Positions 696-51,089 of a stretch of DNA of 64,000 bases are shown piece by piece. A program made the translations under genes and the position numbers. This stretch comes from an uncultured Rickettsiales bacterium (GTDB taxonomy: Bacteria > Pseudomonadota > Alphaproteobacteria > Rickettsiales > UBA8987), in assembly GCA_964445765.1 (NCBI GenBank), contig CAYULD010000002.1, positions 139,505 to 203,504 of the forward strand. Direction: 5' to 3'. Under the pieces are notes generated by a model that ran no database searches, was not told the DNA's origin, and saw only the letters and a list, made by a program, of their open reading frames with translations. How positions within the stretch are numbered: the stretch's first letter is position 1; each line of letters opens with the position of its first letter.

Positions 696-781
696 TGTCA
701 TCCTGACCCCTAGAGCGAAGTGAAGGGGAAGGATCTTTAGATGTTTCGCTAACTAGATGTTTCGCTTCGCTCAACATGACA
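696..781. repeat. palindromic repeat family A copy (RPE/MITE-like, inverted TGTCATCCTGA...TCAACATGACA termini)
   Basis: Left arm is tgtcatcctgacccctagagcgaagtgaaggggaaggatct. Right arm agatgtttcgcttcgctcaacatgaca is identical to the right arm at 29780-29806. Contains an internal duplication of agatgtttcgct. Lies just 3' of lolA. Confidence 0.7.
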
Positions 782-5085: not shown

Positions 5086-5164
5086 TGTCATCTTGAGCGA
5101 AGCGAAAGATCTAATTTACTAAAAAATTAACTTATTAGATTCTTCGCTTACTCTCAGAATGACT
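5086..5164. repeat. palindromic repeat family A copy
   Basis: tgtcatcttgagcgaagcgaaagatct ... agattcttcgcttactctcagaatgact. These are inverted arms around an AT-rich loop. Confidence 0.65.
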
Positions 5165-10635: not shown

Positions 10636-10712
10636 ATTTAATGTATATAATAATATCGTAAATTTATTTATTCTTTGAAATAATTTATATATCAGAGTAA
10701 ATAATTAATTTT

Positions 10713-10748
10713 GCCCTCACCCTAACCCTCACCCGAAGGAAGAGGGAA
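10713..10748. repeat. GC-rich hairpin repeat family B copy
   Basis: gccctcaccctaaccctcacccgaaggaagagggaa is about 80 percent identical to the copy inside valS (57075-57110). It lies in the murE-murF spacer, 3' of murE. Confidence 0.65.
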
Positions 10749-10792
10749 TAATAAAGTTAAAATTCTAATCCCAAACACCTAATACCTAATCC

Positions 10793-12256
10793 CTAAATAT
10801 ATTTTTTTACAATTTCACAATCACTAAAATAATATTTTTCTTTACCGATTATCTGATAATTTTCGTGGCCTTTGCCTGCAATAAGCAAGCAATCTGATGG
10901 TTTTAGCATCTCTAAACCTTTTTTTATAGCTTCCTCACGATTTGGAATTTCAATTGCATTTGGGCAAGCGGAAATAATTTCTGCACGAATATTTTGAGCA
11001 TTTTCAGTGCGTGGGTTATCATCTGTAATGATTGTAATATCTGAAAGCTCCGCCGAAATTTTACCCATTAATGGTCTTTTGGTTTTATCCCTATCACCAC
11101 CACAGCCAAAAATTGTTATTAGCCTACCGCTTGTTTGCAATTTACAAGAATTTATTGCTTTTTCTAGAGCATCTGGGGTATGTGCATAATCTATAACCGC
11201 CTTTGCATTGCGAGTAATAATTGGAATTAATTCCATTCTACCCTTAACTGATTTTATATTCTGTGATGCCTTACAAATTTCAGAAAAATTATAATTATTA
11301 TTAATCAATAACGCAATCGCACAAGCTAAATTATACGCTTGAAAACCCCCAATAAGATTGGTTTTTATAGTTTTAATAATTTCTTTATATTGCAATTCTA
11401 ATTCAATACCGGTTTCATTTAACAAAATATTTTTTATGGTTAAATCATTTGATTTTTTACCAAAAGAAAAGATTTTTTTATTATTTTGAGTGCAGATTTT
11501 TGAAATTTCTTCAAATTCATTTATATCAGAATTAACAACTGCAACGCCATTTTCAGATAAATGCTTAGTAAAAATAAGCATTTTAGCGGCAAAATATTCC
11601 GCCATTGTTTTGTGAAAATCAAGATGGTCTTGGGAAAAATTAGTAAAACCCGCAACTAAAAACTTAATAAAACCAAGCCTTTGAAGAAATAATCCGTGGC
11701 TTGAGGCTTCCATAATTATTTCATTTATATTTTTATCTTTTAAGTTTTTTAGATTTTCAAATAAGGTTAAAATATCTGGCGTTGTCATACCGCTATCAGA
11801 GGATATTTTTTCAAAATCACCATCTATTAAAGTTCCCAAAGTGCCAATTGAGGCAGATTTAACCCCCATTTTTGCTAGAATATTTGCAGAAAAATTAGCA
11901 ACTGAAGTTTTGCCGTTTGTGCCAGTAACACCATAAATATTCTGCGGAATTTTATCTTTATAAAAAACTTCAACCGCACGATAAATAAATTTATTTATAT
12001 CATCAATTTTGATGAATGAGGTTTCTTTATATTTTGCATCAATAATATAATTATGGCTTACAATGATAGCTTTTGCACCTTTTTCAATGGCATCTGGGAT
12101 AAAATCTTCACCATTAAAATTTTGCCCTTTTAGTGCAAAAAATATTGAGTTATCAATAATTTTACGAGAATCAGAAATTAGTGCAGAAATTTCAAAATCT
12201 TTCTTAAAAAGAATTTGTGCATCATCTATAGCATATGTAAATTGAGAAAATTTCAC
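10793..12256 (-). CDS. murE: UDP-N-acetylmuramoyl-L-alanyl-D-glutamate--2,6-diaminopimelate ligase
   Basis: 487-aa ORF with GVTGTNGKTSVANF, EASSHGL, DYAHTPDALEKA and the DNPR motif (TDDNPRTE) diagnostic of DAP-adding MurE. Confidence 0.92.
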   Translation of the reverse strand: MKFSQFTYAIDDAQILFKKDFEISALISDSRKIIDNSIFFALKGQNFNGEDFIPDAIEKGAKAIIVSHNYIIDAKYKETSFIKIDDINKFIYRAVEVFYKDKIPQNIYGVTGTNGKTSVANFSANILAKMGVKSASIGTLGTLIDGDFEKISSDSGMTTPDILTLFENLKNLKDKNINEIIMEASSHGLFLQRLGFIKFLVAGFTNFSQDHLDFHKTMAEYFAAKMLIFTKHLSENGVAVVNSDINEFEEISKICTQNNKKIFSFGKKSNDLTIKNILLNETGIELELQYKEIIKTIKTNLIGGFQAYNLACAIALLINNNYNFSEICKASQNIKSVKGRMELIPIITRNAKAVIDYAHTPDALEKAINSCKLQTSGRLITIFGCGGDRDKTKRPLMGKISAELSDITIITDDNPRTENAQNIRAEIISACPNAIEIPNREEAIKKGLEMLKPSDCLLIAGKGHENYQIIGKEKYYFSDCEIVKKYI

Positions 12257-12310
12257 TTATTAGACTTATTATAGCTATATATTATTTCTAAAAAATTATT
12301 CTTAAAATTT

Positions 12311-12351
12311 ACCCTCACCCCTGCCCTCTCACTACAATTAGATAGAGGGGG
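12311..12351. repeat. GC-rich hairpin repeat family B copy
   Basis: accctcacccctgccctctc-actacaattagata-gaggggg, immediately 3' of the pth stop. Confidence 0.6.
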
Positions 12352-12914: not shown

Positions 12915-13040
12915 TGTTCAAAATTTATATTCATTTTGCTATAGCTTTAATATAATTTTTTAACTTTAGGAATATTCTTAACTTGATTTGTTTTTGCATA
13001 TGCCTATAGTTGCATATATACAACAATAATTGGTGGTTAT

Positions 13041-14897
13041 ATGAATGATAGATTGGTAAATGCTTGGGCTAATATGGGCATAAATAGCACAATAACAAGG
13101 GAGCAAGCAGAAGAATTAGCACAAAACCCTACGCCAAAAAATATTGAGAGAATCCAAAGATACTACTTAAATCAAGTTAAACCTAAAGAAGCTCCCAAAA
13201 AAGCAGTTTTTGCTGATCCAAATGATGAATTTTTAGCAGGTAGCCCAGCTAATTTAGGTATTGGAAATCCTAATGTTAATCCTCATCCAGTTGTTATTCA
13301 GGCTATATCTGATAGGCTTGATGATTCACAAAAATATGTCGCACCCTTAGGAAGCGATAACACTAGGAAAGTTGTAGCTGAATATTTTAACAGCGTTTAT
13401 GGTTTTAGTGATAGTAATATTCACCCTGACTATCACGAAGGTGAGAAGCCAGAAGGTTTTACTAAAGATGATGCCTTCGTAACCAGAAATAGCACCAATA
13501 TTTTTGATATTGTTCTTGCAGAAGGCAAAGAGAGATTTGAAAAATTAAAAGCTGAAAAAATTGCCGAATTAGAAAAAAATATTAAAAGCAATCCTCAATC
13601 CAAAAAAGAATTAGAAAATGAATTAAAACAATGGCAAAAAGCAAAGCCAATTGTTGCATCTATTGGGTTAATTTATAATGCCACAAAATCAAATGCAGAA
13701 AGAAAAGGTTATGTAGTTAAATCATTTTTAGGTAGTAGTGAAGAGGGCAATTTACCCAGTAAAGATGAGCTTAATGCTCAATATGAAGTATTAACGCCCT
13801 TTGAAAGGGAGTGTATTGTGGTTTTAATTCCACCAACTCATAATCCTAATTCTTTAGTTACTCCAGATGATAAAATCAAAGATTATGCCGAATTTGTAAA
13901 TAAAGTTGATGCGGAACAAAATAAAACTAAATTTCGCTTAAGAACATTTCTTGATTTACCATATACTTTAATTTCAGCATTACCTGAAACTAGTATGGTT
14001 AAATATTTATCTGAAAAAGTAAAATCAACCCTTGTAATTGCTGATTCTTTATCAAAAAAAGGTGGGCTTCCTTCAGATGGTGCAGCTGGTGCTTCAAAAG
14101 ATGAAGGATTTATTCAATATGTTGGAGCTAAAATTCTAGATAGCAATTTGTCAGTTGGCAATTTAGCGGACGCAGCAGTTGGAGCATTTTTTGCACATTT
14201 AACCAATGTTTATGCCAATGTTTTTGAAAATTTCCGAACTAAGTTGGTGAATAAAAATATTGTAAAATTATGGTGTAGCACAGGAATAAATAAACCCGAC
14301 CCAAATTTATTATCTCAAGATCAATTAGTTGAAGCCCATCAGCAATTACCAACTATGGAAACTGCTGAAAAATATGGCTTAAACCAAAAATATTTAGGCA
14401 ATTTGTTATCAGCGGTTTGCAAAGAATTGGGGCTTGATCAAAAAGTTATAAAAACTGGCCATAATATTGGTATGTATGTTAATTTCTTCCTAACGGAATT
14501 AAAAGATAGAGAGCTTTCAGATGCAAAAGTTTTATATGACGGCCTTTTAAGTTTCAAAAATGTTTTAGGAAAAGATAAAATTGAAACAGGTGCTGATTTA
14601 CAAAAAGCTCTTGAGCATTGCGTTGGGCTTGAAAATTGTGGGCCTATAACTTGTCGTGCTTTAGAAATGTTCAATGGAAGAGCAGAAGATGTTGGCGTAA
14701 GGTTTTGTCATACTAACCCTAATCAATTAAATGAGCTTGGTGTAAAATATATCGCTAAAATGCTATCAGCTGCATATAATTTACCAGAAATTCCAGAAGA
14801 AAAATTTGCAGAGTTATCAACCAAAGCGATGAAAAGAGCTATTAATTATAATGACTATTCTTTTAGACATTACATAACAAGCGGAAGAGCAACATAA
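13041..14897 (+). CDS. orphan 618-aa protein with a diverged PLP fold-type-I (class I/II aminotransferase-like) core plus insertions and a C-terminal extension
   Basis: Motifs appear in the canonical order: LGIGNPNVNPHP..., Y.APLGSDNTRKVVAEYF, AFVTRNSTN, IPPTHNPNSLV (compare NPxNPTG), LDLPYT (compare DxAY) and SLSKKGGLPSDGAAGA (compare SxSKxxGxxGxRxG, with the Lys kept and the Arg lost). A coiled-coil insert spans residues about 165-200. Confidence 0.5.
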   Translation: MNDRLVNAWANMGINSTITREQAEELAQNPTPKNIERIQRYYLNQVKPKEAPKKAVFADPNDEFLAGSPANLGIGNPNVNPHPVVIQAISDRLDDSQKYVAPLGSDNTRKVVAEYFNSVYGFSDSNIHPDYHEGEKPEGFTKDDAFVTRNSTNIFDIVLAEGKERFEKLKAEKIAELEKNIKSNPQSKKELENELKQWQKAKPIVASIGLIYNATKSNAERKGYVVKSFLGSSEEGNLPSKDELNAQYEVLTPFERECIVVLIPPTHNPNSLVTPDDKIKDYAEFVNKVDAEQNKTKFRLRTFLDLPYTLISALPETSMVKYLSEKVKSTLVIADSLSKKGGLPSDGAAGASKDEGFIQYVGAKILDSNLSVGNLADAAVGAFFAHLTNVYANVFENFRTKLVNKNIVKLWCSTGINKPDPNLLSQDQLVEAHQQLPTMETAEKYGLNQKYLGNLLSAVCKELGLDQKVIKTGHNIGMYVNFFLTELKDRELSDAKVLYDGLLSFKNVLGKDKIETGADLQKALEHCVGLENCGPITCRALEMFNGRAEDVGVRFCHTNPNQLNELGVKYIAKMLSAAYNLPEIPEEKFAELSTKAMKRAINYNDYSFRHYITSGRAT

Positions 14898-24391: not shown

Positions 24392-24418
24392 AGATTTCTC
24401 GCTACGCTAGAAATTACA
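24392..24418. repeat. solo half-site of repeat family A
   Basis: agatttctcgctacgctagaaattaca is the reverse complement of a TGTAATTTCTAGCGTAGCGAGAAATCT-type arm (compare 50550-50577). No partner arm is nearby. Confidence 0.5.
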
Positions 24419-29717: not shown

Positions 29718-29806
29718 TGTCATCCTGACCCTAAGCGAAGCTAAGGGGAAGGATCTATAGTAAAATGCATTTTACTATAAGATGTTTCGCTTCGCTCAAC
29801 ATGACA
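29718..29806. repeat. palindromic repeat family A copy carrying the 24-bp perfect palindrome tatagtaaaatgcattttactata in its loop
   Basis: tgtcatcctgaccctaagcgaagctaaggggaaggatc-[tatagtaaaatgcattttactata]-agatgtttcgcttcgctcaacatgaca, located 3' of the virB6-like gene. Confidence 0.75.
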
Positions 29807-42144: not shown

Positions 42145-44725
42145 GCTTTTTGAAATTTAGTAAGCCATCAGAAACAGAAACCATAACTACATTGCCTTCT
42201 TTAACCTTACCACTGATAATATCTGAAGCAAGGCGGTTTTGAAGCTCCCTCTGAATAACTCTTTTAAGCGGTCTTGCACCATAAATTGCATCATAGCCAT
42301 TTTGGGCAATCCAATTTTTAGCCTCATCAGAAATATTAAGGGTAATATTTTTCTGTTTGAGTTTAGCCAAGATATTTTTAAGCTGAATATCAACAATTCC
42401 AACCATATTTTCTCGCTTGAGCTTATTGAATAATAATATTTCATCAAGACGATTAATAAATTCTGGCCTGAAATTATTACGAACTTCTTGCATTACTTTA
42501 GGGCGAGCTAAATCAACTGGGTCATTCTCTTTAAGCTCCGCAATATATTGAGAGCCTAAATTTGAGGTGAGAATTATAATTGTATTAGTGAAATCAACTG
42601 TTCTGCCTTGAGAATCAGTAAGCCTTCCTTCATCTAAAACTTGTAATAGAATATTAAAAACATCTGGGTGGGCTTTTTCAACTTCATCAAAAAGCACAAC
42701 TTGATATGGCCTTCTGCGAACGGCTTCAGTTAATACGCCGCCTTCTTCATAGCCAACATAACCGGGAGGTGCACCAATTAAGCGAGATACGGAATGTTTC
42801 TCCATAAATTCACTCATATCAATACGAACCATTGCAGTTTCATCATTAAAGATAAATTCTGCAAGTGCCTTTGTTAGCTCAGTTTTACCAACACCCGTTG
42901 GCCCCAGAAATAAGAATGAGGCGAGTGGCCTTCTTTCATCATTAAGCCCAGCTTTACTTCTGCGAACTGCTTCGCTAACGGCTTTTACGGCTTCATCTTG
43001 TCCAACAACTCTTTTGGCAAGGTTTTTCTCCATCTCTATAAGTTTTAGCCTTTCACCTTCTAGCATTTTTTCTACTGGAATGCCTGTCCATTTTGCAACC
43101 ACACCTGCGATATCATCATCAGTTACTGCATCGTGAACAAAGGTTACATTTGATTCTTCCTCAAGCTGAGAAAGCTTTTTTTGAAGTGATGGAATAATTC
43201 CATAAGCAAGCTCACCAGCCCTTGATAAATCACCTTTTCTTTGTGCTATTTCTAAATCTTTTTTTGCCTCATCAATTTTACTTTTGATATTTTTAATACC
43301 GGTTAATTTTTGTTTTTCTTTATCCCATTGCTCTGTAAGCTCTTTGGCTTTAGCTTCAACTTTTGCAAGCTCCTCTCTTATTTTAAGAAGCCTATCCATT
43401 GATGCTTCATCGGTTTCTTTGCTTAGTGCCTCTTGCTCAATTTTTAGCTGAATAATTTTTCTATCAAGCTCATCAATTTTTTCAGGCTTACTATCAACTT
43501 GCATTTTTAGTTTGCTTGCAGCTTCATCAACTAAATCAATGGCTTTGTCGGGTAAAAACCTATCTGTAATATAACGATTTGATAGGGTTGCAGCCGCAAC
43601 TATTGCACTATCAGAAATTTTAACGCCGTGATGAACTTCATATTTACCCTTAAGCCCCCTTAAAATTGCGATAGTATCTTCAACGCTTGGCTCACCAACA
43701 AAAACTGGCTGGAAACGCCTTGCAAAGGCTGGGTCTTTTTCAATATGCTTACGATATTCATCAAGGGTGGTTGCACCAATACAATGCAATTCACCCCTTG
43801 CTAAAGCGGGCTTTAGAAGGTTAGAGGCATCCATTGCCCCTTCTCCCTTACCAGCACCCATTAGAGTGTGAACTTCATCAATAAATAAAACTATATCACC
43901 TTCTGCTTGGCTGATTTCATTTAGAATAGATTTAAGCCTTTCTTCAAATTCACCCCTGAAAGAAGTGCCTGCAATTAATGAGCCTAAATCAAGTGCCATA
44001 AGCCTTTTACCTTTCAGATTCTCTGGCACATCACCTTGCACAATTCTTTGGGCTAACCCTTCAATGATTGCGGTTTTACCAACACCCGGCTCCCCAATTA
44101 AAATTGGGTTATTTTTTGTTCTTCTGGAAAGAACTTGCATTGCCCTGCGAATTTCTTCATCACGCCCGATAACTGGGTCTAACTTGCCTTCTGCGGCTCT
44201 TTTAGTTAAATCTATTGAGAATTTTTCTAGGGATTGATAAGTGCTTTCAGCATTTGCAGAATCAGCTTTTCTGCCTTTGCGAACTTCTTTAATCCCTTTT
44301 TGCAATTTTGCTTGATTAAAACCACTTGCCTCAAAAATTTTAATTACTTCGCTTGAGCCTTCTTCAAAAATAGCCTCAATAAATCTTTCAGAAGTGCCAA
44401 ACTCATCACCATTCTTCTTAGCAAGCTCTGAGGTTAATTCTAATAATTTTGAAAGTTTTGGATGTAAATAAAGCTCACCCTCGCTTGCACCTGAAACTTT
44501 AGGAAGTTTTTCAACCTCTTTAATGATTTTTGAGTAAATATTATCCGCATCAGCATTATTTATTTGGGCAATTTTGCGAATAACCCCATCTTTCTCAGGG
44601 CTTAAGAGTGATGCCGTAACATGAAGCTCAGTAAGCTGTTGATTTTTATTACGAAGTGCTGATTGCGTTGCATCCTGCACCGCCTCTTGAAAAGCTATGG
44701 TATATTTTTCAGGTTTATAAGACAT
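42140..44725 (-). CDS. clpB: ATP-dependent chaperone ClpB
   Basis: 861-aa ORF with two AAA+ modules ([22 protein letters not shown]), a middle coiled-coil domain and a Clp N-domain. Confidence 0.96.
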
Positions 44726-44925
44726 AATTTTTTCTATTATTTTTTATAAAAATATCTTCTAACTTTAAGATAGTGTTTGATTATTATCATTCAATATCAA
44801 TATTAATTATTATTTTTTGCCTAGAAAACCCTTTACTTTTAGCTAAATTCATATAAAAGCCCCAAACTATTTGATGATAGTAGTTTATTAACACCAGCAA
44901 AAGCTGGCTAACAATGGTAATCAAT

Positions 44926-45624
44926 ATGTCTACAACAAAAAGAGCAGTTCTTAAAGCAGAGCCAAGAAATAACAAAGGCACAGGTGCCGCTAGAGAAGTT
45001 AGGAAAAATGGTAATATTCCAATAACTATTTATGGTAAGAATAAAGAACAATTATTTCTTACAACTAACACAAAAGATCTCAATACTGAATATTTAAGAG
45101 GTAGATTTTTCTCTAAGGTAGTTGAAATTGAAGTTAACGGAAAAAAAATTCTTGCCAACCCTAAGGAAATTCAATTTGATAGGGTTAAAGATATTCCAAT
45201 TCACGCTGATTTCATAGCTGTTGATGAACATTCACAGATTAAAATTTCTGTTCCAGTTGAGTTTCTTAATATTGAAAAATGTCCGGGTCTTAAAAGAGGT
45301 GGTGTTCTTAACGTGGTTAGAAGAACCGTTGATATTTTCTGCAACATTGATAACATTCCAGAAAAACTAACTGCTGATCTCGGAAGCCTTAAAATTGGTG
45401 ATAATATTAAATGGAGTGGCCTTGGCAAACCTGAAGGTGTTACACCTTTCATTAAGAATAGGGATTTCACAATTGCAACTATCGCAGGCAGAAGTGCTGA
45501 TGAAGATAAAGCTGAAGGTGCTGATGCTAATGCTCCAGCTGCACCGGTTGTTACTGGCCAAAAGAATGCTAACGCACAAGCTGATGCTCAAAAAGCACCT
45601 GCAAAACCAGCGACTAAGAAGTAA
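44926..45624 (+). CDS. rplY: 50S ribosomal protein L25/general stress protein Ctc
   Basis: MSTTKRAVLKAEPRNNKGTGAAREVRKNGNIPITIYGK plus a Ctc C-domain and an Ala/Lys-rich tail. An alternative start lies 12 nt upstream at 44914. Confidence 0.85.
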   Translation: MSTTKRAVLKAEPRNNKGTGAAREVRKNGNIPITIYGKNKEQLFLTTNTKDLNTEYLRGRFFSKVVEIEVNGKKILANPKEIQFDRVKDIPIHADFIAVDEHSQIKISVPVEFLNIEKCPGLKRGGVLNVVRRTVDIFCNIDNIPEKLTADLGSLKIGDNIKWSGLGKPEGVTPFIKNRDFTIATIAGRSADEDKAEGADANAPAAPVVTGQKNANAQADAQKAPAKPATKK

Positions 45625-45680
45625 TATTCTTATTGCTAAATCATTCTGGGTTAAGCAAAAAATCTAATAAATAATTTGGC

Positions 45681-47783
45681 TTGCTTAGAATTATTGGCAA
45701 ATATGTTTCTGATTTTTTCTTTCTTGAATATAATTTGGGCAGAATAGCTTTGCTGATTCCAATTATTTTTGCTTCTGGAATTGCAAGTTATTTCTGCTTA
45801 AAATTTGAGCCTAAAATTACCCCTTCAATATATGCGGTGATAATGTTTTTATCACTTGCTCTGCTTGCTTATTATAAAAAACGCTTAGTTTATTTTTATT
45901 TATCAATTTCTTGTTTAATATTTTCAATAGGTTTTTTGCTTGCAAAAATAGAGGCGGATTATAAAAACCACCCAAAAATTCAAGAAAATCTAGGCGTTAT
46001 ATGGCTTAGAGCTAAAATTCATAAAATTGAAGCAGAGGAAAAATTTAATCGCCTTATTCTAAAAGAAAATAATTTATGGCAACCTAAAATTGGTAAATTT
46101 TCAGAGGATAAAACCCCAAAATATATAAGGTTAAATGTAAGAACAAAATTAACCCAAAATGGCAAAATTTTAGATTTTAGCAAACTTAATCAAAATGATT
46201 ATATTCAAGTAAAAGTTATTTTGTCTCCACCTGCTTCACTTCCTGCTTTTCCTAATGCTTATGATTTTGCAAAATATTCTTATTTTGAAGAAATTGGTGC
46301 AGTTGGCTTTGCTATTTCAGAAGTAAAAATTTTAGAAAAAAACCAAGCGGATTTCATTCAAAAATTGCGTAGCAAAATTAATCAAAGAATTGAAAAATCA
46401 TTTGAAGATAAAAAAACTATAACCATTGCGAAAGCCTTAGTAACTGGGGATAGGGCGGCACTTGATAACCAAACTAATGAAAAATTAAGATATAGTGGGC
46501 TTGGGCATATTTTATCTATTTCTGGCTTGCACCTTTCAATTGTAATGGTTTGGGTTTATGGTTTTTTAAGGCTTTTAATTGCATTATTTCCTATATTTGC
46601 CTTAAAATTTGATAGCAAAAAAACCAGTGCAATTCTTGCAATATTATTTGGGCTAATCTATTTATTCATAGCTAACAAGCCAATTCCAGCGGTTCGCTCA
46701 TATTTAATGTTAACCTTATTTTTTGTCGGAATATTATTTAATAGAGAAATTTCACCCTTTCGCCCTTTAGCACTTGCCGCCTTAATAATATTAATTATTG
46801 AGCCAAGCTCTTTAGTAAATGTATCATTTCAACTTTCATTTGCGTCTATTACTGCACTAGCTGGAATCTATGAAATTTACATTCGTTATTTTGGAAAAAA
46901 TAATGAAAATCACAATGAAAATTTTATAAGAAAATTTTTCAAATATTTACTGGGGATTATTTTTTCTTCGCTAATTGTTGGGTTTATAACTGGGCCAATT
47001 ATGGCTTATCATTTCAGTAATGTTTCTAAGTTTTCTGCGGTTTCTAATCTGTTAACTTTGCCGTTTGTAAGTTTTATTACAATGCCATTTTTAGCAATTG
47101 CAACTTTGTTTTCCGCCTTTTCATTTAGTGAGTTTTTATATAAGCCTGCTGAAATTGGTATAAAAATTATGCTTTTTTGTGCAGAAAAATTTGGTGATGC
47201 AAACTCTGGTATTATTAGAATATCTGCACTTCCTGAGTATTTCTTAATATTAATTTCTTGTGCGTGGCTATGGTTTTTTACCTTTTCTAGTAAAATTAGA
47301 TTTTTAGCAATTCCGTTTATTATTTCGGTTTATGCTCTTATTATTTTTGCCCAAAAACAGCCAGATATATTGATAGATGAAAAAGCTAAAACTTTTATAA
47401 TCAAAGCCAATAATGAATATTATATTTATGGCAGAATTGGTGGCTTTAAGCTGAAGCAATATAAAGAAAAACTAGGCGTAAATCAATTTTTGAGGAAAAA
47501 GAAAAATGAAGAAGATAAATTTTGTAATGATAGTTTTTGTGAGATAAAAAATATTTTAATCGCTAGAAATAATATAAAACTTAGAGAAAACCTAAATTGT
47601 AAAAAATATAAGGTTGTTGTTAATTTAACTGATGATAAAATCTGCCAAGCTCCAGCTAAAAACAAAATTATAACCAAAGATAGCCTTAAAAATTATGGCA
47701 CTCATTTAGTTTGGCAAAACGGCAGAATTGAAAACTCAAGAGATTTTTCCGGCTATAGAATTTGGAATTTTTCTAAACTTTAA
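45681..47783 (+). CDS. comEC: ComEC/Rec2 family DNA internalisation channel protein
   Basis: 700-aa polytopic ORF with a TTG start and the competence-domain motif YSGLGHILSISGLHLSIV. Confidence 0.8.
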   Translation: MLRIIGKYVSDFFFLEYNLGRIALLIPIIFASGIASYFCLKFEPKITPSIYAVIMFLSLALLAYYKKRLVYFYLSISCLIFSIGFLLAKIEADYKNHPKIQENLGVIWLRAKIHKIEAEEKFNRLILKENNLWQPKIGKFSEDKTPKYIRLNVRTKLTQNGKILDFSKLNQNDYIQVKVILSPPASLPAFPNAYDFAKYSYFEEIGAVGFAISEVKILEKNQADFIQKLRSKINQRIEKSFEDKKTITIAKALVTGDRAALDNQTNEKLRYSGLGHILSISGLHLSIVMVWVYGFLRLLIALFPIFALKFDSKKTSAILAILFGLIYLFIANKPIPAVRSYLMLTLFFVGILFNREISPFRPLALAALIILIIEPSSLVNVSFQLSFASITALAGIYEIYIRYFGKNNENHNENFIRKFFKYLLGIIFSSLIVGFITGPIMAYHFSNVSKFSAVSNLLTLPFVSFITMPFLAIATLFSAFSFSEFLYKPAEIGIKIMLFCAEKFGDANSGIIRISALPEYFLILISCAWLWFFTFSSKIRFLAIPFIISVYALIIFAQKQPDILIDEKAKTFIIKANNEYYIYGRIGGFKLKQYKEKLGVNQFLRKKKNEEDKFCNDSFCEIKNILIARNNIKLRENLNCKKYKVVVNLTDDKICQAPAKNKIITKDSLKNYGTHLVWQNGRIENSRDFSGYRIWNFSKL

Positions 47784-48552
47784 TAGGGCTGAAATTTTGA
47801 ACTAGTGATCCCGCTTCCATTTTTGCAGGTGCATCTGGCTTGCCATATTCTTTTAATGCTTCAACAATATCTGCCATTTTCTTAAAGCCAATATCTATGT
47901 GGGCGTTTTCTCTACCCTTAAATTTCATAGAAAATTTAACCTTATCGCCATCTTGCAAAAATTCTACCGCGTGTTTAATGCGATATTCTAAATCGTGGGG
48001 ATCAGTATTATAGCGGAGTTTTATCTCTTTTAAGTGAACAATTTTTTGATGTTTTTTTGCTTCTTTCTTTTTCTTTTGTTGCTCATAGAGAAATTTACCT
48101 AAATCCATTATTTTACAAACTGGCGGCTCTGCATTCGGGGAGATTTCCACTAAATCTAAATCTGCATCTTGTGCCATTGAAAGGGCTTCTCTAAGGGCTA
48201 TAATACCTACCATTTCGCCGTTTTCATCTATCAAGCGAACGGGATCAGCTTTAATATATTGATTAACTTTAGGCCCATCATTTTTGGCATTTTTTGCGTA
48301 TTTATCTTCTTTTTGGTTATTGTTATCCCTTTTGAAAGGTGGCCTTGCACCGCTATTAAAAGCAGGCTTAGAGCCTGAGTTAAACGGAGGTTTAGAGCCA
48401 GAATTGAAAGGAGGCTTTGTGCCTGAATTATAAGGTGGCCTTGCACCTGAGTTATTATTTGGGTTTTGCGGTCTATTTCCGAAAGATTGGTTATTCGGTT
48501 TTGGAGATGAAGGCCTATTGAAACCAGAGCCTTGGTTATTATCGTTATTTAT
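47773..48552 (-). CDS. infC: translation initiation factor IF-3, probably with a ~100-aa repetitive N-terminal extension and an AUA start
   Basis: The conserved IF-3 core runs from VNQYIKADPVRLIDENGEMVG...EISPNAEPPVCKIMD to the stop at 47773. The same frame stays open upstream to 48585. ATA at 48550-48552 is preceded by GAGGA (48557-48561). The minimal alternatives are ATT at 48255 or TTG at 48234. Confidence 0.6.
   Translation of the reverse strand: MNNDNNQGSGFNRPSSPKPNNQSFGNRPQNPNNNSGARPPYNSGTKPPFNSGSKPPFNSGSKPAFNSGARPPFKRDNNNQKEDKYAKNAKNDGPKVNQYIKADPVRLIDENGEMVGIIALREALSMAQDADLDLVEISPNAEPPVCKIMDLGKFLYEQQKKKKEAKKHQKIVHLKEIKLRYNTDPHDLEYRIKHAVEFLQDGDKVKFSMKFKGRENAHIDIGFKKMADIVEALKEYGKPDAPAKMEAGSLVQNFSPIKV
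48337..48456. repeat. five tandem 24-bp units encoding G(S/A)(K/R)PP(F/Y)NS octapeptides
   Basis: The units are aggtggccttgcaccgctattaaa / agcaggcttagagcctgagttaaa / cggaggtttagagccagaattgaa / aggaggctttgtgcctgaattata / aggtggccttgcacctgagttatt. They are in frame with infC. Confidence 0.8.
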
Positions 48553-48645
48553 AAAATCCTCACTTTTAGTTGTAAATCTATTGGTTTATAATGTTATAAT
48601 CAAACAATTTTGTCAAGGGCTATAAGTAAACTTGCACTTTACAAA

Positions 48646-49827
48646 CTATCTATCCACCTCACCGAAAACTATATCCATTGAGCCAAGCACCGCAACTACA
48701 TCCGCAAGCATATGGCCACGACATAATTCATCCATTGCAGAAAGATGCACAAAACCGGGTGCTCTTAAACGGCATCTATATGGTTTATTAGTTCCATCAG
48801 CCACTACAAACACGCCAAATTCACCTTTTGGGGCTTCCACTGCGGCATAATATTCACCCTCTGGCACATGATAACCTTCCGTATATAGCTTGAAGTGATG
48901 GATTAATGCCTCCATAGATGTTTTCATCTGGCTTCTAGTTGGCGGGGTAATTTTTTTATCCAGAGATTTAACCGCCCCTTCAGGAATTTGCTCACAAGCC
49001 TGTTTTATAATCTTGATTGATTCATACATTTCAGCAATTCGGCATAAATATCTATCATAACAATCACCATTTTTGCCGATTGGAATATCAAAATCCATTT
49101 TATCATAAACTTCATAAGGCTGAGATTTTCTTAAATCCCAAGCTATTCCAGAGGCACGAATCATTGGCCCTGAGAAACCTAAATCTAGGGCTTTTTCTGC
49201 AGAAACTGGGGCGATATCAACCGTTCTTTGCTTAAAAATGCGGTTTTCAGTAAGTAAATCTTCAACATCAGAGAGATATTTTGGAAATTCATTGGCAAAT
49301 TTCATAATATCTTCAAGCAAGCCTTGCGGTAAATCTCTAGTTACACCTCCGGGGCGAATATAAGCAGAATGCATACGAGAGCCAGAAACCCTTTCATAAA
49401 ATTCTATAATTTTCTCTCTTTCTTCAAACAGCCATAAAAGGGGCGTCATAGCACCAACATCAAGTGCGAAGGTGGTTACATTCATTATATGGTTTAATAT
49501 TCTAGTAAGCTCACTAAATATAACCCTTATATATTGTGCCCTTAATGGAACTTGGCATTTTAGCAATTTCTCAACGGCGAGTGCATAAGCGTGCTCCTGA
49601 CACATTGGGGAAACATAATCCAAGCGATCAAAATAAGGCACTGCTTGCAGATAAGTTTTATGCTCAATTAGTTTTTCAGTTCCCCTATGAAGCAAGCCAA
49701 TGTGTGGATCTGCCCTTTCAACAACTTCCCCATCAAGCTCAAGAATTAGCCTTAAAACCCCGTGTGCCGCTGGGTGCTGCGGGCCAAAATTCAGGGTCAT
49801 ATTTTTCAAAGAAACTTCTTTAGACAT
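48646..49827 (-). CDS. nuoD: NADH-quinone oxidoreductase subunit D
   Basis: 393-aa ORF with [28 protein letters not shown] and [21 protein letters not shown]. Confidence 0.96.
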
Positions 49828-49839
49828 TATGGTTTAAGA

Positions 49840-50430
49840 TTAATTGTTAACCTGCTTGTGATCAGGTGGGGTGGGTTTGCCAGTTGGCTTTCTTTTAATT
49901 ATAGTATTTGTTCTTTTGATTTTATCTTGCAGCTTAAGAACGCCATAAAGCAGGGCTTCTGCGGTTGGTGGGCAACCCGGAACATAAACATCAACCGGCA
50001 CTATTCTATCACAACCTCTAACAACTGAGTATGAATAATGATAATATCCGCCACCATTTGCACAAGAACCCATTGAGATAACATAGCGTGGCTCTGCCAT
50101 TTGGTCATAAACTTTTCTTAAGGCTGGTGCCATTTTATTGGTGAGTGTGCCTGCAACAATCATAACATCTGACTGACGCGGAGATGGGCGGAAAACCATA
50201 CCAAATCTATCTAAATCATAACGGCTTGCGGCGGTTTGCATCATCTCAACTGCACAACAGGCAAGGCCGAATGTCATTGGCCATAGAGAGCCTGATCTTG
50301 CCCAGTTAATAAGGTTATCTAGCTTGGCGATAACAAAGCCTTTATCTGTAATTTCTTCAGTAACAGCGTTTAAGATGTAATCTTGATCCGCACCCGCTGG
50401 AATCACCGGATTAATTAAGTTTTTTGACAT
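49840..50430 (-). CDS. nuoB: NADH-quinone oxidoreductase subunit B
   Basis: 196-aa ORF with [26 protein letters not shown] and YVPGCPP (the N2 cluster cysteines). Confidence 0.96.
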
Positions 50431-50549
50431 AAAATAATTAAATTTACCCCAATTAATACTTAAACTAAATAAAAACTCAAGATTTTATATGTGTGGTTGT
50501 TAGTGGTTGGTGATGGTGGATGGTATCAAGAGGTTAGTAATAGTATTAT

Positions 50550-50860
50550 TGTCATTTCGAGCAAAGCGAGAAATCTAGAAAGAATATATTATCCTCATGG
50601 GCTAGTTATAAACAGAGATTGATAATTTTAACATATTAATCTTGCTCTATATTTCCTCCCCTGCTAGCGGGGGAGGATAAAGGAGGGGGTGTCAGGAAAG
50701 AGCTTAATATTCTGTTTATAAGTTCTCTCACATCACCCTCCCCTTTATCCCCTCCCGCAGGCAGGAGGGGAAATACTACAATTAATCAACGGGTTATAGT
50801 TTTGCCTTAACTAGCCCATAGGGTTTGTATAAAAAATTTCTCACTTCGTTCGCAATTACA
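50550..50860. repeat. ~311-bp composite, three-layer imperfect palindrome (family-A termini enclosing family-B-like hairpins)
   Basis: Outer arms are tgtcatttcgagcaaagcgagaaatcta (50550-50577) and aatttctcacttcgttcgcaattaca (50835-50860). Middle arms are atgggctagtta (50597-50608) and its inverse within 50807-50822. Inner inverted pair is atttcctcccctgctagcgggggaggataaaggaggggg (50651-50689) and catcaccctcccctttatcccctcccgcaggcaggagggg (50731-50770). Confidence 0.75.
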
Positions 50861-51089
50861 CACCTCTATAATTATCTAATAATGCCTTATTCAACCTGAC
50901 TTTCACACCCTTTATATCATTATATTCTAATATTAGAATATGCTTATATATTAATATTATAGTAGAATGATAAACTACTAACCCCCCAAACCCTAGCTCA
51001 CCCTAATCAATCTATTTTTTGGGATATTTTCAAAAACCCTTGCTTTTTCCTGCATTAAAATATATCGTTGCCAAAATGTAACATACAAT

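What the first reader, a model, noticed from the sequence alone, without database searches (positions are those of the whole stretch)
50550..50860. ~311-bp three-layer nested palindrome in the 660-bp spacer between nuoB and the 1007-aa orphan gene
Three concentric inverted-repeat layers share a centre near 50705-50715:
- Outer: family-A termini tgtcatttcgagcaaagcgagaaatcta (50550-50577) against aatttctcacttcgttcgcaattaca (50835-50860).
- Middle: atgggctagtta (50597-50608) against its reverse complement within 50807-50822.
- Inner: two GC-rich hairpin units in inverted orientation (50651-50689 and 50731-50770), each itself a hairpin.

The whole could extrude as a long cruciform or fold as a roughly 150-bp RNA hairpin.

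It looks like a long member of the family-A element, whose short members are 79-89 bp, carrying family-B-like cargo. It lies where nuoA would normally sit, in the divergent promoter region of nuoB and the orphan gene.
Basis: seen in the sequence. Interest (0 to 1): 0.6.

Follow-up and report, generated by a model that had tools for sequence, protein, structure and literature searches.

The report
Nested selfish hairpin repeats between genes
The 311-bp palindrome is real, but it is most likely a pile-up of mobile hairpin repeats that a close relative lacks, and its core is a gene-less miniature of a small, widespread element that encodes a DUF559 (Vsr-like) endonuclease.

Summary
Window 50550-50860 is one long imperfect palindrome: arms 75% identical, alignment score 88 against -16±10 for shuffles, fold z = -5.8 as DNA and -10 as RNA.

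The host is an uncultured Rickettsiales bacterium. A close relative (L084; nuoB 98.5%, nuoD 97% aa) has the same nuoD-nuoB | orf-murA order. Its spacer is only 186 bp and holds no palindrome, so the structure is lineage-specific and is not conserved regulatory DNA. That relative also lacks nuoA and nuoC, so nothing "replaced nuoA".

- **Outer layer:** two 27-nt hairpin units (TGTCAT-stem-GAGCGAAGCGA-stem'-ATCT) of a dispersed, REPIN-like doublet family that also occurs far outside this lineage.
- **Inner layer:** a ~125-bp "B doublet". It is ~80% identical to a copy inside valS in this window and to a copy at a different spacer in the relative.
- **Origin of B units:** they are the terminal inverted repeats of DUF559 endonuclease genes in 80 diverse metagenome loci (22-fold enrichment). 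One Rickettsiales ValS site occurs empty, with a doublet only, or with doublet-DUF559-doublet.
- **Middle layer:** no sibling was found.

Best reading: a composite of selfish hairpin elements, with no evidence of a host function. Interest is moderate, mainly because of the DUF559 link.

The parts
50550..50576 (+). Outer layer, left A unit: TGTCATTTCGAGCAAAGCGAGAAATCT, a 27-nt hairpin with a GCAAAGC variant of the GCGAAGC tip
   Evidence: R1 covariance model 41.9 bits, E = 1e-6. Stem covaries among window copies.
50834..50860 (-). Outer layer, right A unit (degenerate stem): TGTAATTGCGAACGAAGTGAGAAATTT on the minus strand
   Evidence: R1 37.3 bits. 80% complementary to the left unit (I3).
50577..50648 (.). 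Left 'middle' arm. Its best block is 50585-50608, with the exact 12-mer ATGGGCTAGTTA at 50597-50608.
   Evidence: IR I4, 79%. No other copy in the window or in metagenome contigs together with A and B. Origin unresolved.
50777..50833 (.). Right 'middle' arm. Its best block is 50808-50831, with TAACTAGCCCAT at 50808-50819.
   Evidence: IR I4. Arm-to-arm identity in this stretch is only about 50-75% per 20 columns.
50649..50776 (.). Inner layer: B doublet, a miniature gene-less DUF559-type element. It consists of the F unit (hairpin 50654-50677 plus G-rich tail 50682-50691), a spacer (50692-50733) and the R unit (C-rich tail 50734-50743 plus hairpin 50749-50770).
   Evidence: A strict detector finds exactly these two units plus the two in valS in the 64 kb. 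About 80% identical over its whole length to the valS doublet and to the L084 doublet, z about 7-10.
56984..57113 (.). Sibling B doublet, in frame inside valS (ORF 55448-58810, minus strand)
56579..56893 (-). DUF559 (Vsr-like endonuclease) domain, in frame inside valS next to the sibling doublet. A further B-like hairpin at about 56545-56575 closes the insert.
   Evidence: Pfam PF04480 E = 1.4e-40, covering 4-108 of 109. PDB 3HRL E = 1.9e-28. Insert limits come from the empty-site orthologues.
696..781 (.). Short A doublet (86 bp), sibling of 29718-29806
5086..5164 (.). Short A doublet (79 bp)
29718..29806 (.). Short A doublet (89 bp). Its spacer is a 24-nt perfect palindrome that also stands alone at 42121-42144.
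   Evidence: (D10, I25).
24392..24418 (-). Solo A unit with the same ATTTC/GAAAT stem subtype as the units of the finding
51040..51089 (+). Block conserved with relatives just upstream of the 1007-aa gene, likely its promoter or 5' leader. It lies outside the palindrome.
   Evidence: Alignment with L084. Partly also present in L083.

Best explanation
The 311-bp palindrome is a composite of selfish hairpin repeats that accumulated in the nuoB-orf spacer after this lineage split from its closest sequenced relative. It is not a host regulatory device.

**Shown**
1. The outer ends are two units of a dispersed doublet family. The units are REP-like (27-nt covarying hairpins) and the doublets are REPIN-like.
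2. The core is a ~125-bp doublet of GC hairpin units arranged F -> spacer <- R. This is the same arrangement, with the same kind of units, that brackets DUF559 endonuclease genes. It is a gene-less miniature of such an element.
3. Copies of this doublet sit at non-orthologous places in this genome and in the relative.
4. The orthologous spacer of the relative lacks the palindrome.

**Inferred**
- The doublet is, or was, mobilised in trans by a DUF559 endonuclease such as the one encoded inside valS 6 kb away, by cleavage and repair-mediated copying.
- The layers became concentric because one palindromic element landed in the short central spacer of another. Spacers of A doublets in this window demonstrably hold unrelated palindromes.
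- Alternatively or in addition, hairpin-templated repair symmetrised the arms.

The middle arms are either the long outer parts of the inner element's terminal repeats or a third element.

Consequences are side effects: a cruciform- or hairpin-prone spacer that breaks short-read assemblies. Both promoters most likely lie in the flanks outside it.
For: **Palindrome and sequence**
- The palindrome is real and far beyond chance. The sequence is confirmed by independent contigs.

**Absent from a close relative**
- L084 (nuoB 98.5%, nuoD 96.9%, infC 96%, murA 92% aa; same gene order) has a 186-bp spacer against 659 bp here.
- Only the two gene-proximal ends align.

**Outer layer (A)**
- A units score 41.9 and 37.3 bits. 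Stem pairs covary: 96% paired, 0 of 500 shuffles reach the score.
- Doublets 696-781 and 29718-29806 share near-identical arms but have unrelated flanks and different spacers. One spacer holds a 24-nt palindrome that also occurs alone at 42121.
- A units and doublets occur in unrelated contigs: L021, L087, L096 and at least 120 IMG/VR contigs.

**Inner layer (B)**
- About 80% identity over the whole length, spacer included, to the valS doublet and to the L084 doublet at the orf-murA spacer. The window has only 70 bp at that spacer.

**Link to DUF559**
- In 80 metagenome loci with GC content 32-66%, strict B hairpins lie within 200 nt upstream in 50 of 79 and downstream in 47 of 75.
- Density is 3.93 per kb near the gene against 0.18 per kb elsewhere.
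- Orientation is specific: 38 F against 10 R upstream, 30 R against 5 F downstream.
- 35 of 68 loci have significant terminal inverted repeats, median 40 nt and up to 128 nt.

**Full, miniature and empty states**
- One ValS site occurs empty, with a doublet only, or with the full element in different Rickettsiales.
- In L286 one valS gene carries a doublet at that site and a full B-DUF559-B element at a second site. The two have near-identical terminal units.

**A second example**
- L084 12978-13294 is also a whole-length imperfect palindrome (77% over 145 nt) with a B doublet at its exact centre and different outer arms.
Against: - No second copy of the whole 311-bp arrangement, nor of the middle arms, was found. 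The search covered the 64-kb window and JGI metagenome contigs. The rest of the source genome could not be read.
- No target-site duplication is visible at any layer.
- No mobilising enzyme for the A family was identified.
- Movement of B doublets is inferred from presence/absence patterns. It has not been observed, and DUF559 activity on these hairpins is untested.
- The arms are similar along their whole length, including stretches that belong to no known family, both here and in L084. In L084 the two centres coincide within 1 nt. Simple nested insertion does not predict this; it fits symmetrisation or long terminal repeats better.
- The enrichment of B units near A units in viral contigs is weak (8 against 22 units, about 3-fold).
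Confidence: 0.62

Rival explanations
1. The 311 bp is one long non-autonomous transposable element (a 'long family-A member') that moves as a unit, with ~150-nt terminal inverted repeats.
For: - The ends are family-A units in the canonical orientation.
- The arms align along their whole length.
- An unrelated contig (L259 5063-5454) also has A units bracketing 341 nt that contains B-type hairpins.
Against: - There are no siblings with A, M and B together in the window or in metagenome contigs.
- The core exists and spreads without A ends: in valS, in L084 and in L286.
- 20 of 22 A doublets in viral contigs have spacers of about 41 nt or less.
- No target-site duplication is present.
Confidence: 0.12
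2. The palindrome grew in place. A B doublet, or a short inverted repeat, seeded hairpin-templated repair or strand switching during replication. That copied one flank onto the other, so the outer 'layers' are symmetrised local sequence rather than separate insertions.
For: - Arm similarity extends through stretches that belong to no repeat family, here (10-15 of 20 per block) and in L084 (77%).
- In L084 the outer and inner centres coincide within 1 nt.
- Partial duplications of A-unit halves next to A units, at window 737-752 and L021 6890-6930, show slippage-type events at these hairpins.
Against: - A units already occur as inverted pairs in short elements with unrelated flanks, so their pairing needs no local symmetrisation.
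- The arms are only 75% identical, so any such event is old or was never exact.
- No direct evidence of the process was obtained.
Confidence: 0.18
3. It is a host regulatory or structural element of the divergent nuoB/orf promoter region. Possible roles include a cruciform or long RNA hairpin acting as insulator, attenuator, terminator or protein-binding site.
For: - It lies between divergent genes and has very strong folding potential.
- REP-, BIME- and MITE-type repeats are known to be co-opted for such roles (Nunvar et al. 2010, PMC2817692; MITE review PMC10969869).
Against: - It is absent from the same spacer in a relative with near-identical flanking genes.
- The conserved blocks lie outside it.
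- Promoter-like sites are at chance level and no terminator-like sites were found.
- No Rfam family reaches its threshold. Only generic hairpin (miRNA precursor) models match, far below their cut-offs.
Confidence: 0.05
4. It marks a replication origin or another chromosomal landmark.
For: A long palindrome next to AT-rich palindromes (50913-50972), plus one DnaA-box-like 9-mer at 50589.
Against: - DnaA-box matches are at chance level: 18 found, 18.2±4.5 expected.
- There is no sustained sign change of GC skew here in the 2-kb profile. The local values track the orientation of the genes.
- The structure is absent from the relative.
Confidence: 0.01

Closest known systems
REP / REPIN / BIME repeats of proteobacteria (mobilised by RAYT tyrosine transposases; Nunvar et al. 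2010, PMC2817692)
   Same: - The outer units are short imperfect-palindrome hairpins with an invariant 5' head and a covarying stem.
- They occur as inverted doublets with a short spacer, like REPINs.
- The whole locus is a mosaic of different palindromic units in alternating orientation, like a BIME.
- They are intergenic.
   Different: - The head is TGTCAT, not GTAG.
- No RAYT gene was seen in the 64 kb; the rest of the genome was not available.
- The family spans very different organisms, including contigs classed as viral.
- The mosaic here is concentric rather than tandem.
Rickettsia palindromic elements (RPEs; Ogata et al. 2000 and 2002, as summarised in PMC10969869)
   Same: - The host is a Rickettsiales bacterium.
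- These are palindromic repeats of about 100-150 bp with no known transposase.
- They sit in spacers and also in frame inside essential protein genes. Here the B doublet is in valS.
   Different: - Sequence similarity to the RPE consensus families could not be tested.
- The B doublets here are GC-rich hairpin pairs with a demonstrable endonuclease-carrying full-length form. As far as I know, this has not been reported for RPEs.
MITE / autonomous-element pairs
   Same: The B doublet and the B-DUF559-B element share their terminal inverted repeats and occupy the same kinds of site. This is the classic relation of a miniature to its full-length element.
   Different: - The encoded protein is a Vsr-like PD-(D/E)XK endonuclease, not a DDE, HUH or serine transposase.
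- No target-site duplication is present.
- The mode of spread is more likely cleavage plus repair copying than transposition.
Homing endonuclease genes and inteins, including the Vsr-fold homing endonuclease I-Bth0305I. It is grouped with VSR/DUF559 in the PD-(D/E)XK survey (PMC3424549).
   Same: - A small endonuclease gene is repeatedly found at one conserved site of an essential gene (valS).
- That site occurs in empty, full and degenerate (miniature) states.
   Different: - There is no intron and no intein splicing domain. The insert is simply translated as part of ValS.
- It carries hairpin terminal repeats.
- It also lives in intergenic DNA.

Membership tests
REP / REPIN (RAYT-associated) | Short imperfect palindromic unit with a conserved 5' head and a covarying stem | tested here: met
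   27-nt unit. 96% of stem cells are paired and 11 cells show changes on both sides; 0 of 500 shuffles reach the score. Same result on 64 distinct units from other contigs: 99.3% paired (that alignment was fitted to the model).
REP / REPIN (RAYT-associated) | GTAG-type head tetranucleotide, as in the REPs tabulated by Nunvar et al. (PMC2817692) | tested here: not met
   The head is TGTCAT (TGTAAT in degenerate copies).
REP / REPIN (RAYT-associated) | Units arranged as inverted doublets with a short spacer | tested here: met
   Three short doublets of 79-89 bp in the window. 20 of 22 pairs in viral contigs have spacers of about 41 nt or less.
REP / REPIN (RAYT-associated) | A RAYT (IS200/IS605-like Y1 transposase) gene in the same genome, flanked by the same units | not testable with these tools
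   Only 64 kb of the genome could be read. No recurrent ORF family lies next to A units in 120 viral contigs.
MITE | Terminal inverted repeats | tested here: met
   The outer ends are 80% complementary. The inner doublet has F and R units.
MITE | Target-site duplication flanking the element | tested here: not met
   The flanks ...AGTATTAT | element | CACCTCTA... share no direct repeat. The same holds for the short A doublets and the B doublets.
MITE | Multiple dispersed copies of the same element | tested here: inconclusive
   The whole 311 bp has no other copy. Its A and B parts each have dispersed copies. The full genome was not available.
MITE | A full-length partner sharing the terminal repeats | tested here: met
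   This holds for the B doublet. B-DUF559-B is found in valS of this window and, with near-identical ends, in L286. The partner is an endonuclease, not a transposase.
Rickettsia palindromic elements (RPE) | Palindromic repeat inserted in frame in protein-coding genes of Rickettsiales | tested here: met
   The B doublet at 56984-57113 is read through in valS. Doublet-only inserts are seen in the ValS proteins P0022, P0029, P0042 and P0082.
Rickettsia palindromic elements (RPE) | Sequence similarity to the published RPE consensus families | not testable with these tools
   No RPE consensus sequences were available. The Ogata 2002 paper is not held.
Miniature of a DUF559-endonuclease element | GC hairpin plus G-rich tail units in F -> ... 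<- R orientation, as around DUF559 genes | tested here: met
   Window 50654-50691 is F and 50734-50770 is R. Orientation around DUF559 genes: 38 F against 10 R upstream, 30 R against 5 F downstream.
Miniature of a DUF559-endonuclease element | Homology to a doublet adjoining a DUF559 gene in the same genome | tested here: met
   80% identity (90 of 113), score 54 against -24±10 for shuffles.
Miniature of a DUF559-endonuclease element | Mobilisation by the endonuclease | not testable with these tools
   Only presence/absence patterns are available. The motifs conserved in DUF559 (IVDF, IIELDG..H) are present in the valS copy.
Chromosomal replication origin | Cluster of DnaA boxes and a GC-skew switch | tested here: not met
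Any curated RNA family (Rfam 15) | Match at the family's gathering score | tested here: not met
   Only a tRNA in the whole window. In the spacer, only sub-threshold generic hairpin matches.

The most novel reading that the evidence does not exclude
GC-rich 'B' hairpin doublets are the non-autonomous form of a very widespread, so far undescribed class of miniature selfish elements. Each is a DUF559 (Vsr-like) endonuclease gene bracketed by ~40-nt hairpin terminal repeats.

These elements can live in frame inside essential genes. ValS of Rickettsiales shows empty, miniature and full states at one site, which would offer a candidate mobilisation mechanism for RPE-like 'protein-coding palindromes'.

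Concentric 'Russian-doll' palindromes such as 50550-50860 and L084 12978-13294 would then arise because these elements preferentially enter, or symmetrise, the tips of existing hairpins or cruciforms.
Probability: 0.3. Interest if true: 0.7.

Novelty: new variant of a known kind. Interest (0 to 1): 0.42.

Why it matters
The palindrome itself matters little. It is selfish repeat DNA in a spacer, though it explains why short-read assemblies break here, and it should not be read as a regulatory element or a remnant of nuoA.

Its core matters more.
- It ties a common class of GC-rich hairpin repeats to DUF559 endonuclease genes across a wide range of organisms.
- It shows full, miniature and empty states at one site of an essential gene.

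If confirmed, this would give DUF559, a large family without an assigned role, a function as the nuclease of a compact mobile element. It would also offer a testable mechanism for in-frame palindromic insertions in Rickettsiales proteins.

Tried and rejected
**Origin of replication.** Rejected: DnaA boxes are at chance level and there is no sustained GC-skew switch.

**Known RNA family.** None at gathering score. Only generic hairpin hits below threshold.

**Siblings of the whole element.**
- blastn-short of the spacer against the window found only self matches.
- An exact gapped pattern joining the A, M and B blocks found 0 hits in metagenome contigs.

**Empty site in GTDB species representatives, via nuoD.**
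- The relatives found were too distant (86% aa or less) and lack synteny.
- The useful relative came instead from homologues of the 1007-aa protein.

**A fourth, outermost layer (GT-rich 50488-50525 against CA-rich 50965-51010).** A local alignment is not above shuffles. The minimum-energy fold pairs a short stretch of about 14 nt there. Treated as not significant.

**My recollection that A units flank GIY-YIG nuclease genes.**
- A crude motif scan found none.
- Clustering of ORFs next to A units in 120 viral contigs gave no recurrent nuclease, only phage proteins and spurious ORFs across repeats.
- The idea is left as unsupported.

**Co-occurrence of A and B units in viral contigs.** Only about 3-fold, on 8 against 22 units. 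Too weak to use.

**Literature.**
- A search for the A-unit sequence found nothing relevant.
- A search for DUF559 as a mobile element found nothing relevant.
- The Ogata 2002 RPE paper is not held.

**Accession of the source assembly.** Not returned.

Full report
**1. The observation**

The spacer between nuoB (49840-50430, minus strand) and the 1007-aa gene (51090-54113, plus strand) is 659 bp.
- 50550-50574 with 50836-50860 (25 nt, 80% complementary);
- 50585-50608 with 50808-50831 (24 nt, 79%, including an exact 12-mer);
- 50650-50706 with 50719-50775 (57 nt, 75%).

Their centres are 50705, 50708 and 50712.5. These blocks are the best-preserved parts of one whole-length palindrome. The left arm aligned to the reverse complement of the right arm gives 108/144 identities (75%), score 88 against -16.5±10.4 for 500 shuffles.

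Positions 50545-50865 fold into one long hairpin: -50.5 kcal/mol as DNA (z = -5.8) and -125.4 kcal/mol as RNA (z = -10).

Two independent short-read (Logan) contigs are identical to the window on either side. Both end inside the element: L001 covers 40921-50579 and L082 covers 50665-59572. The sequence is therefore real, and it is the kind that breaks assemblies.

**2. Organism and the comparison that matters most**

The window has 33% GC. Its NuoD is at most 86% identical to those of uncultured Rickettsiales genomes in the GTDB species set. Those genomes keep nuoC between nuoB and nuoD and share no synteny around the spacer.

The 1007-aa protein is not an orphan. It has homologues at 100%, 71%, 69% and 43% identity.

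The 69% homologue lies on a Rickettsiales genome (L084, GCA_033762595.1) that is a close relative. NuoB is 98.5% identical, NuoD 96.9%, InfC 96% and MurA 92%, with the same order infC-nuoD-nuoB | orf-murA.
- There the nuoB-orf spacer is 186 bp.
- Only about 30 nt next to nuoB and about 60 nt next to the orf (window ~51040-51100) align with the window. The latter block is partly kept even in the 71% homologue's locus.
- The palindrome, and about 160 further bases around it, are therefore specific to the window's lineage.
- The relative also has nuoB directly followed by nuoD, with no nuoA upstream. The idea that the palindrome sits 'where nuoA would be' has no basis.

Other checks:
- Promoter-like hits in the spacer are at chance level and there are no terminator-like sites.
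- DnaA boxes are at chance level and the GC-skew profile shows no sustained switch here.
- No Rfam family matches at threshold.

**3. The outer layer**

The two ends are 27-nt units of the form TGTCAT-stem-GAGCGAAGCGA-stem'-ATCT. The tip contains GCGAAGC, the sequence of the unusually stable DNA mini-hairpin (PMC13037366).

A covariance model built from the nine window units finds only those nine in 64 kb. The two units of the finding score 41.9 and 37.3 bits. The three variable stem pairs covary (ATGTT/AACAT, ATCTT/AAGAT, ATTTC/GAAAT, ATCCT/AGGAT): 96% of cells are paired and 0 of 500 shuffles reach the score.

The units normally occur as inward-facing doublets of 79-89 bp: 696-781, 5086-5164 and 29718-29806. 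Doublets 696-781 and 29718-29806 have nearly identical arms, unrelated flanks and different spacers. The spacer of the second is a 24-nt perfect palindrome that also stands alone at 42121-42144. The centre of an A doublet is therefore a place where other palindromes are found.

The family is not confined to this lineage:
- a doublet occurs in a distant alphaproteobacterial genome (L021);
- doublets occur in unrelated metagenome contigs (L087, L096);
- of 22 inverted pairs there, 20 have spacers of about 41 nt or less and two have long cargo;
- one long cargo (L259 5063-5454, 341 nt) contains several B-type hairpins;
- pairing in 64 distinct units from those contigs is 99.3%, with 54 changes on both sides. 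That alignment was fitted to the model.

No protein family recurs next to these units.

In form the units are REP-like and the doublets REPIN-like (PMC2817692). The head differs from GTAG, and a RAYT gene could not be looked for in the rest of the genome.

**4. The inner layer**

Each inner unit is a C/T-rich GC hairpin followed by a G-rich tail (GGAGGGGGTG). The two units face each other, tails inward, across a 42-nt spacer.

A strict detector (perfect 7-bp stem, C/T-rich arm, tail) finds exactly four such units in the window. Two are in the finding and two are at 56990-57109. The second pair lies inside the 1120-aa valS ORF (55448-58810, minus strand) and is read through in frame. It is followed by an in-frame DUF559 domain (Pfam E = 1.4e-40; PDB 3HRL E = 1.9e-28) and a closing B-like hairpin.

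Three doublets are about 80% identical over their whole length, spacer included, with scores 52-73 against about -25±10 for shuffles:
- the inner layer (50649-50776);
- the valS doublet (56984-57113);
- a doublet in the relative (L084 13083-13192).

The L084 doublet lies in the orf-murA spacer, which is 353 bp there and 70 bp in the window. So the doublet is present here and absent there at one spacer, and the reverse holds at the next spacer.

**5. What B units are**

Eighty metagenome loci encoding DUF559 homologues (44-59% identical, GC 32-66%) were fetched. By eye, nearly all of the 30 loci printed carry such hairpin units on one or both sides.

With the strict detector:
- 50 of 79 loci have a hairpin within 200 nt upstream and 47 of 75 downstream;
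- density is 3.93 per kb near the gene against 0.18 per kb elsewhere (22-fold);
- upstream units are F-oriented (38 against 10) and downstream units R-oriented (30 against 5).

35 of 68 loci have significant inverted repeats between the two flanks, median 40 nt and up to 128 nt. DUF559 genes therefore sit between hairpin terminal inverted repeats, and the inner layer has exactly that architecture without the gene.

**6. Full, miniature and empty states**

Among the 120 best ValS homologues, about 20 carry DUF559 in frame. In the alignment, the site between SPQxSSKGI and RHxKLFPADLRPQAHE occurs in four states:
- empty, a 52-aa segment (P0006, P0009, P0010, P0070 and others);
- with 33-43 extra residues encoded by a doublet (P0022, P0029, P0042, P0082);
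- with a single unit (P0051);
- with the full doublet-DUF559-hairpin insert (this window, P0007, P0008, P0036, P0037, P0041, P0048, P0058, P0073, P0081, P0085).

Other ValS proteins have DUF559 elsewhere in the protein.

At the DNA level, L286 carries a gene-less doublet at this site and a full B-DUF559-B element at a second site of the same gene. Their terminal units are nearly identical. This is the relation of a miniature element to its full-length form.

I found no paper describing it. DUF559 is grouped with Vsr and with a Vsr-fold homing endonuclease in the PD-(D/E)XK survey (PMC3424549).

**7. The middle layer and how the layers became concentric**

No other copy of the middle arms was found.

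Two facts argue for stepwise nesting:
- A doublets have short spacers that hold unrelated palindromes (section 3);
- the B doublet moves on its own (sections 4-6).

An element that lands anywhere in a spacer of about 25 nt is automatically near-concentric. The observed offsets are 3-8 nt.

Two facts argue for symmetrisation, or for long terminal repeats of the inner element:
- the arms are similar through stretches that belong to no family;
- the relative has a second example, L084 12978-13294. It is a whole-length imperfect palindrome (77% over 145 nt, fold z = -5.5) with different outer arms and a B doublet whose centre coincides with the outer centre within 1 nt.

Some DUF559 elements do have terminal repeats of 100 nt or more. 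I cannot decide between these routes with the data available.

**8. Verdict**

The palindrome is real and statistically striking. It is best explained as a lineage-specific composite of selfish hairpin repeats: REPIN-like ends and a miniature DUF559-type element at the core. No evidence for a host function was found.

The nuoA, promoter and orphan-gene framing is not.

The more interesting result is the side finding that B hairpins are the terminal repeats of DUF559 endonuclease genes and that these elements, with their miniatures, occupy essential genes in frame.

Noticed in passing
window 55448-58810 (minus strand), insert about 56545-57115: valS carries an in-frame insert of about 188 aa: a B doublet, a complete DUF559 (Vsr-like endonuclease) domain and a closing hairpin. 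About 20 of the 120 best ValS homologues also carry DUF559 in frame, at this or another site; others have only the doublet or nothing.
   Followed up: yes
window 48646-50430; L084 8024-9814: nuoB is followed directly by nuoD (12-nt gap), with no nuoC between and no nuoA upstream, then infC. The close relative L084 has the same arrangement. More distant Rickettsiales have about 620 bp (a nuoC-sized gap) between the two. It is unknown whether nuoA and nuoC lie elsewhere.
   Followed up: partly
window 29756-29779 and 42121-42144: A 24-nt perfect palindrome, TATAGTAAAATGCATTTTACTATA, occurs twice. One copy fills the spacer of an A doublet. The other stands alone, overlapping the stop codon of the clpB-like ORF (42140-44725) and upstream of the dus gene. 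It could be an operator or another tiny mobile palindrome.
   Followed up: partly
window 51090-54113: The '1007-aa orphan' has homologues in related Rickettsiales (71%, 69% and 43% identity) but no Pfam domain. It evolves much faster than its neighbours: 69% identity against 92-98% for them in L084.
   Followed up: partly
window 50913-50972: An AT-rich palindrome cluster lies next to the big palindrome, including a perfect 20-nt palindrome at 50922-50941 (TATTCTAATATTAGAATA). L084 has a different short palindrome (AAGAATTCTT) at a comparable place in its spacer. Possibly an operator.
   Followed up: no
window 10710-10800 and 12302-12350: Single, imperfect B units lie in two short spacers. The first is followed by heptamer-like CTAATNC repeats (10766-10800). 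GT-rich and CA-rich heptamer repeats also form the outer arms of the L084 palindrome (12978-12999 and 13273-13294).
   Followed up: no
window 737-752; L021 6890-6930: Partial tandem duplications of half an A unit lie right next to complete A units: AGATGTTTCGCTAACT in the window, and two copies of TTGTCATCCTGAGCCCTTGTA in L021. This suggests slippage or abortive copying at these hairpins.
   Followed up: no
L259 5063-5454 (IMG/VR contig): An unrelated contig has two A units bracketing 341 nt that holds several B-type hairpins and an extended A-like hairpin. It is an independent example of A ends with B-type cargo.
   Followed up: partly
window 58807-59190 and upstream small ORF (L082 8143-8768): A PIN-domain gene (127 aa) and an 81-aa ORF overlap the start of valS. 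This is probably a toxin-antitoxin pair.
   Followed up: no
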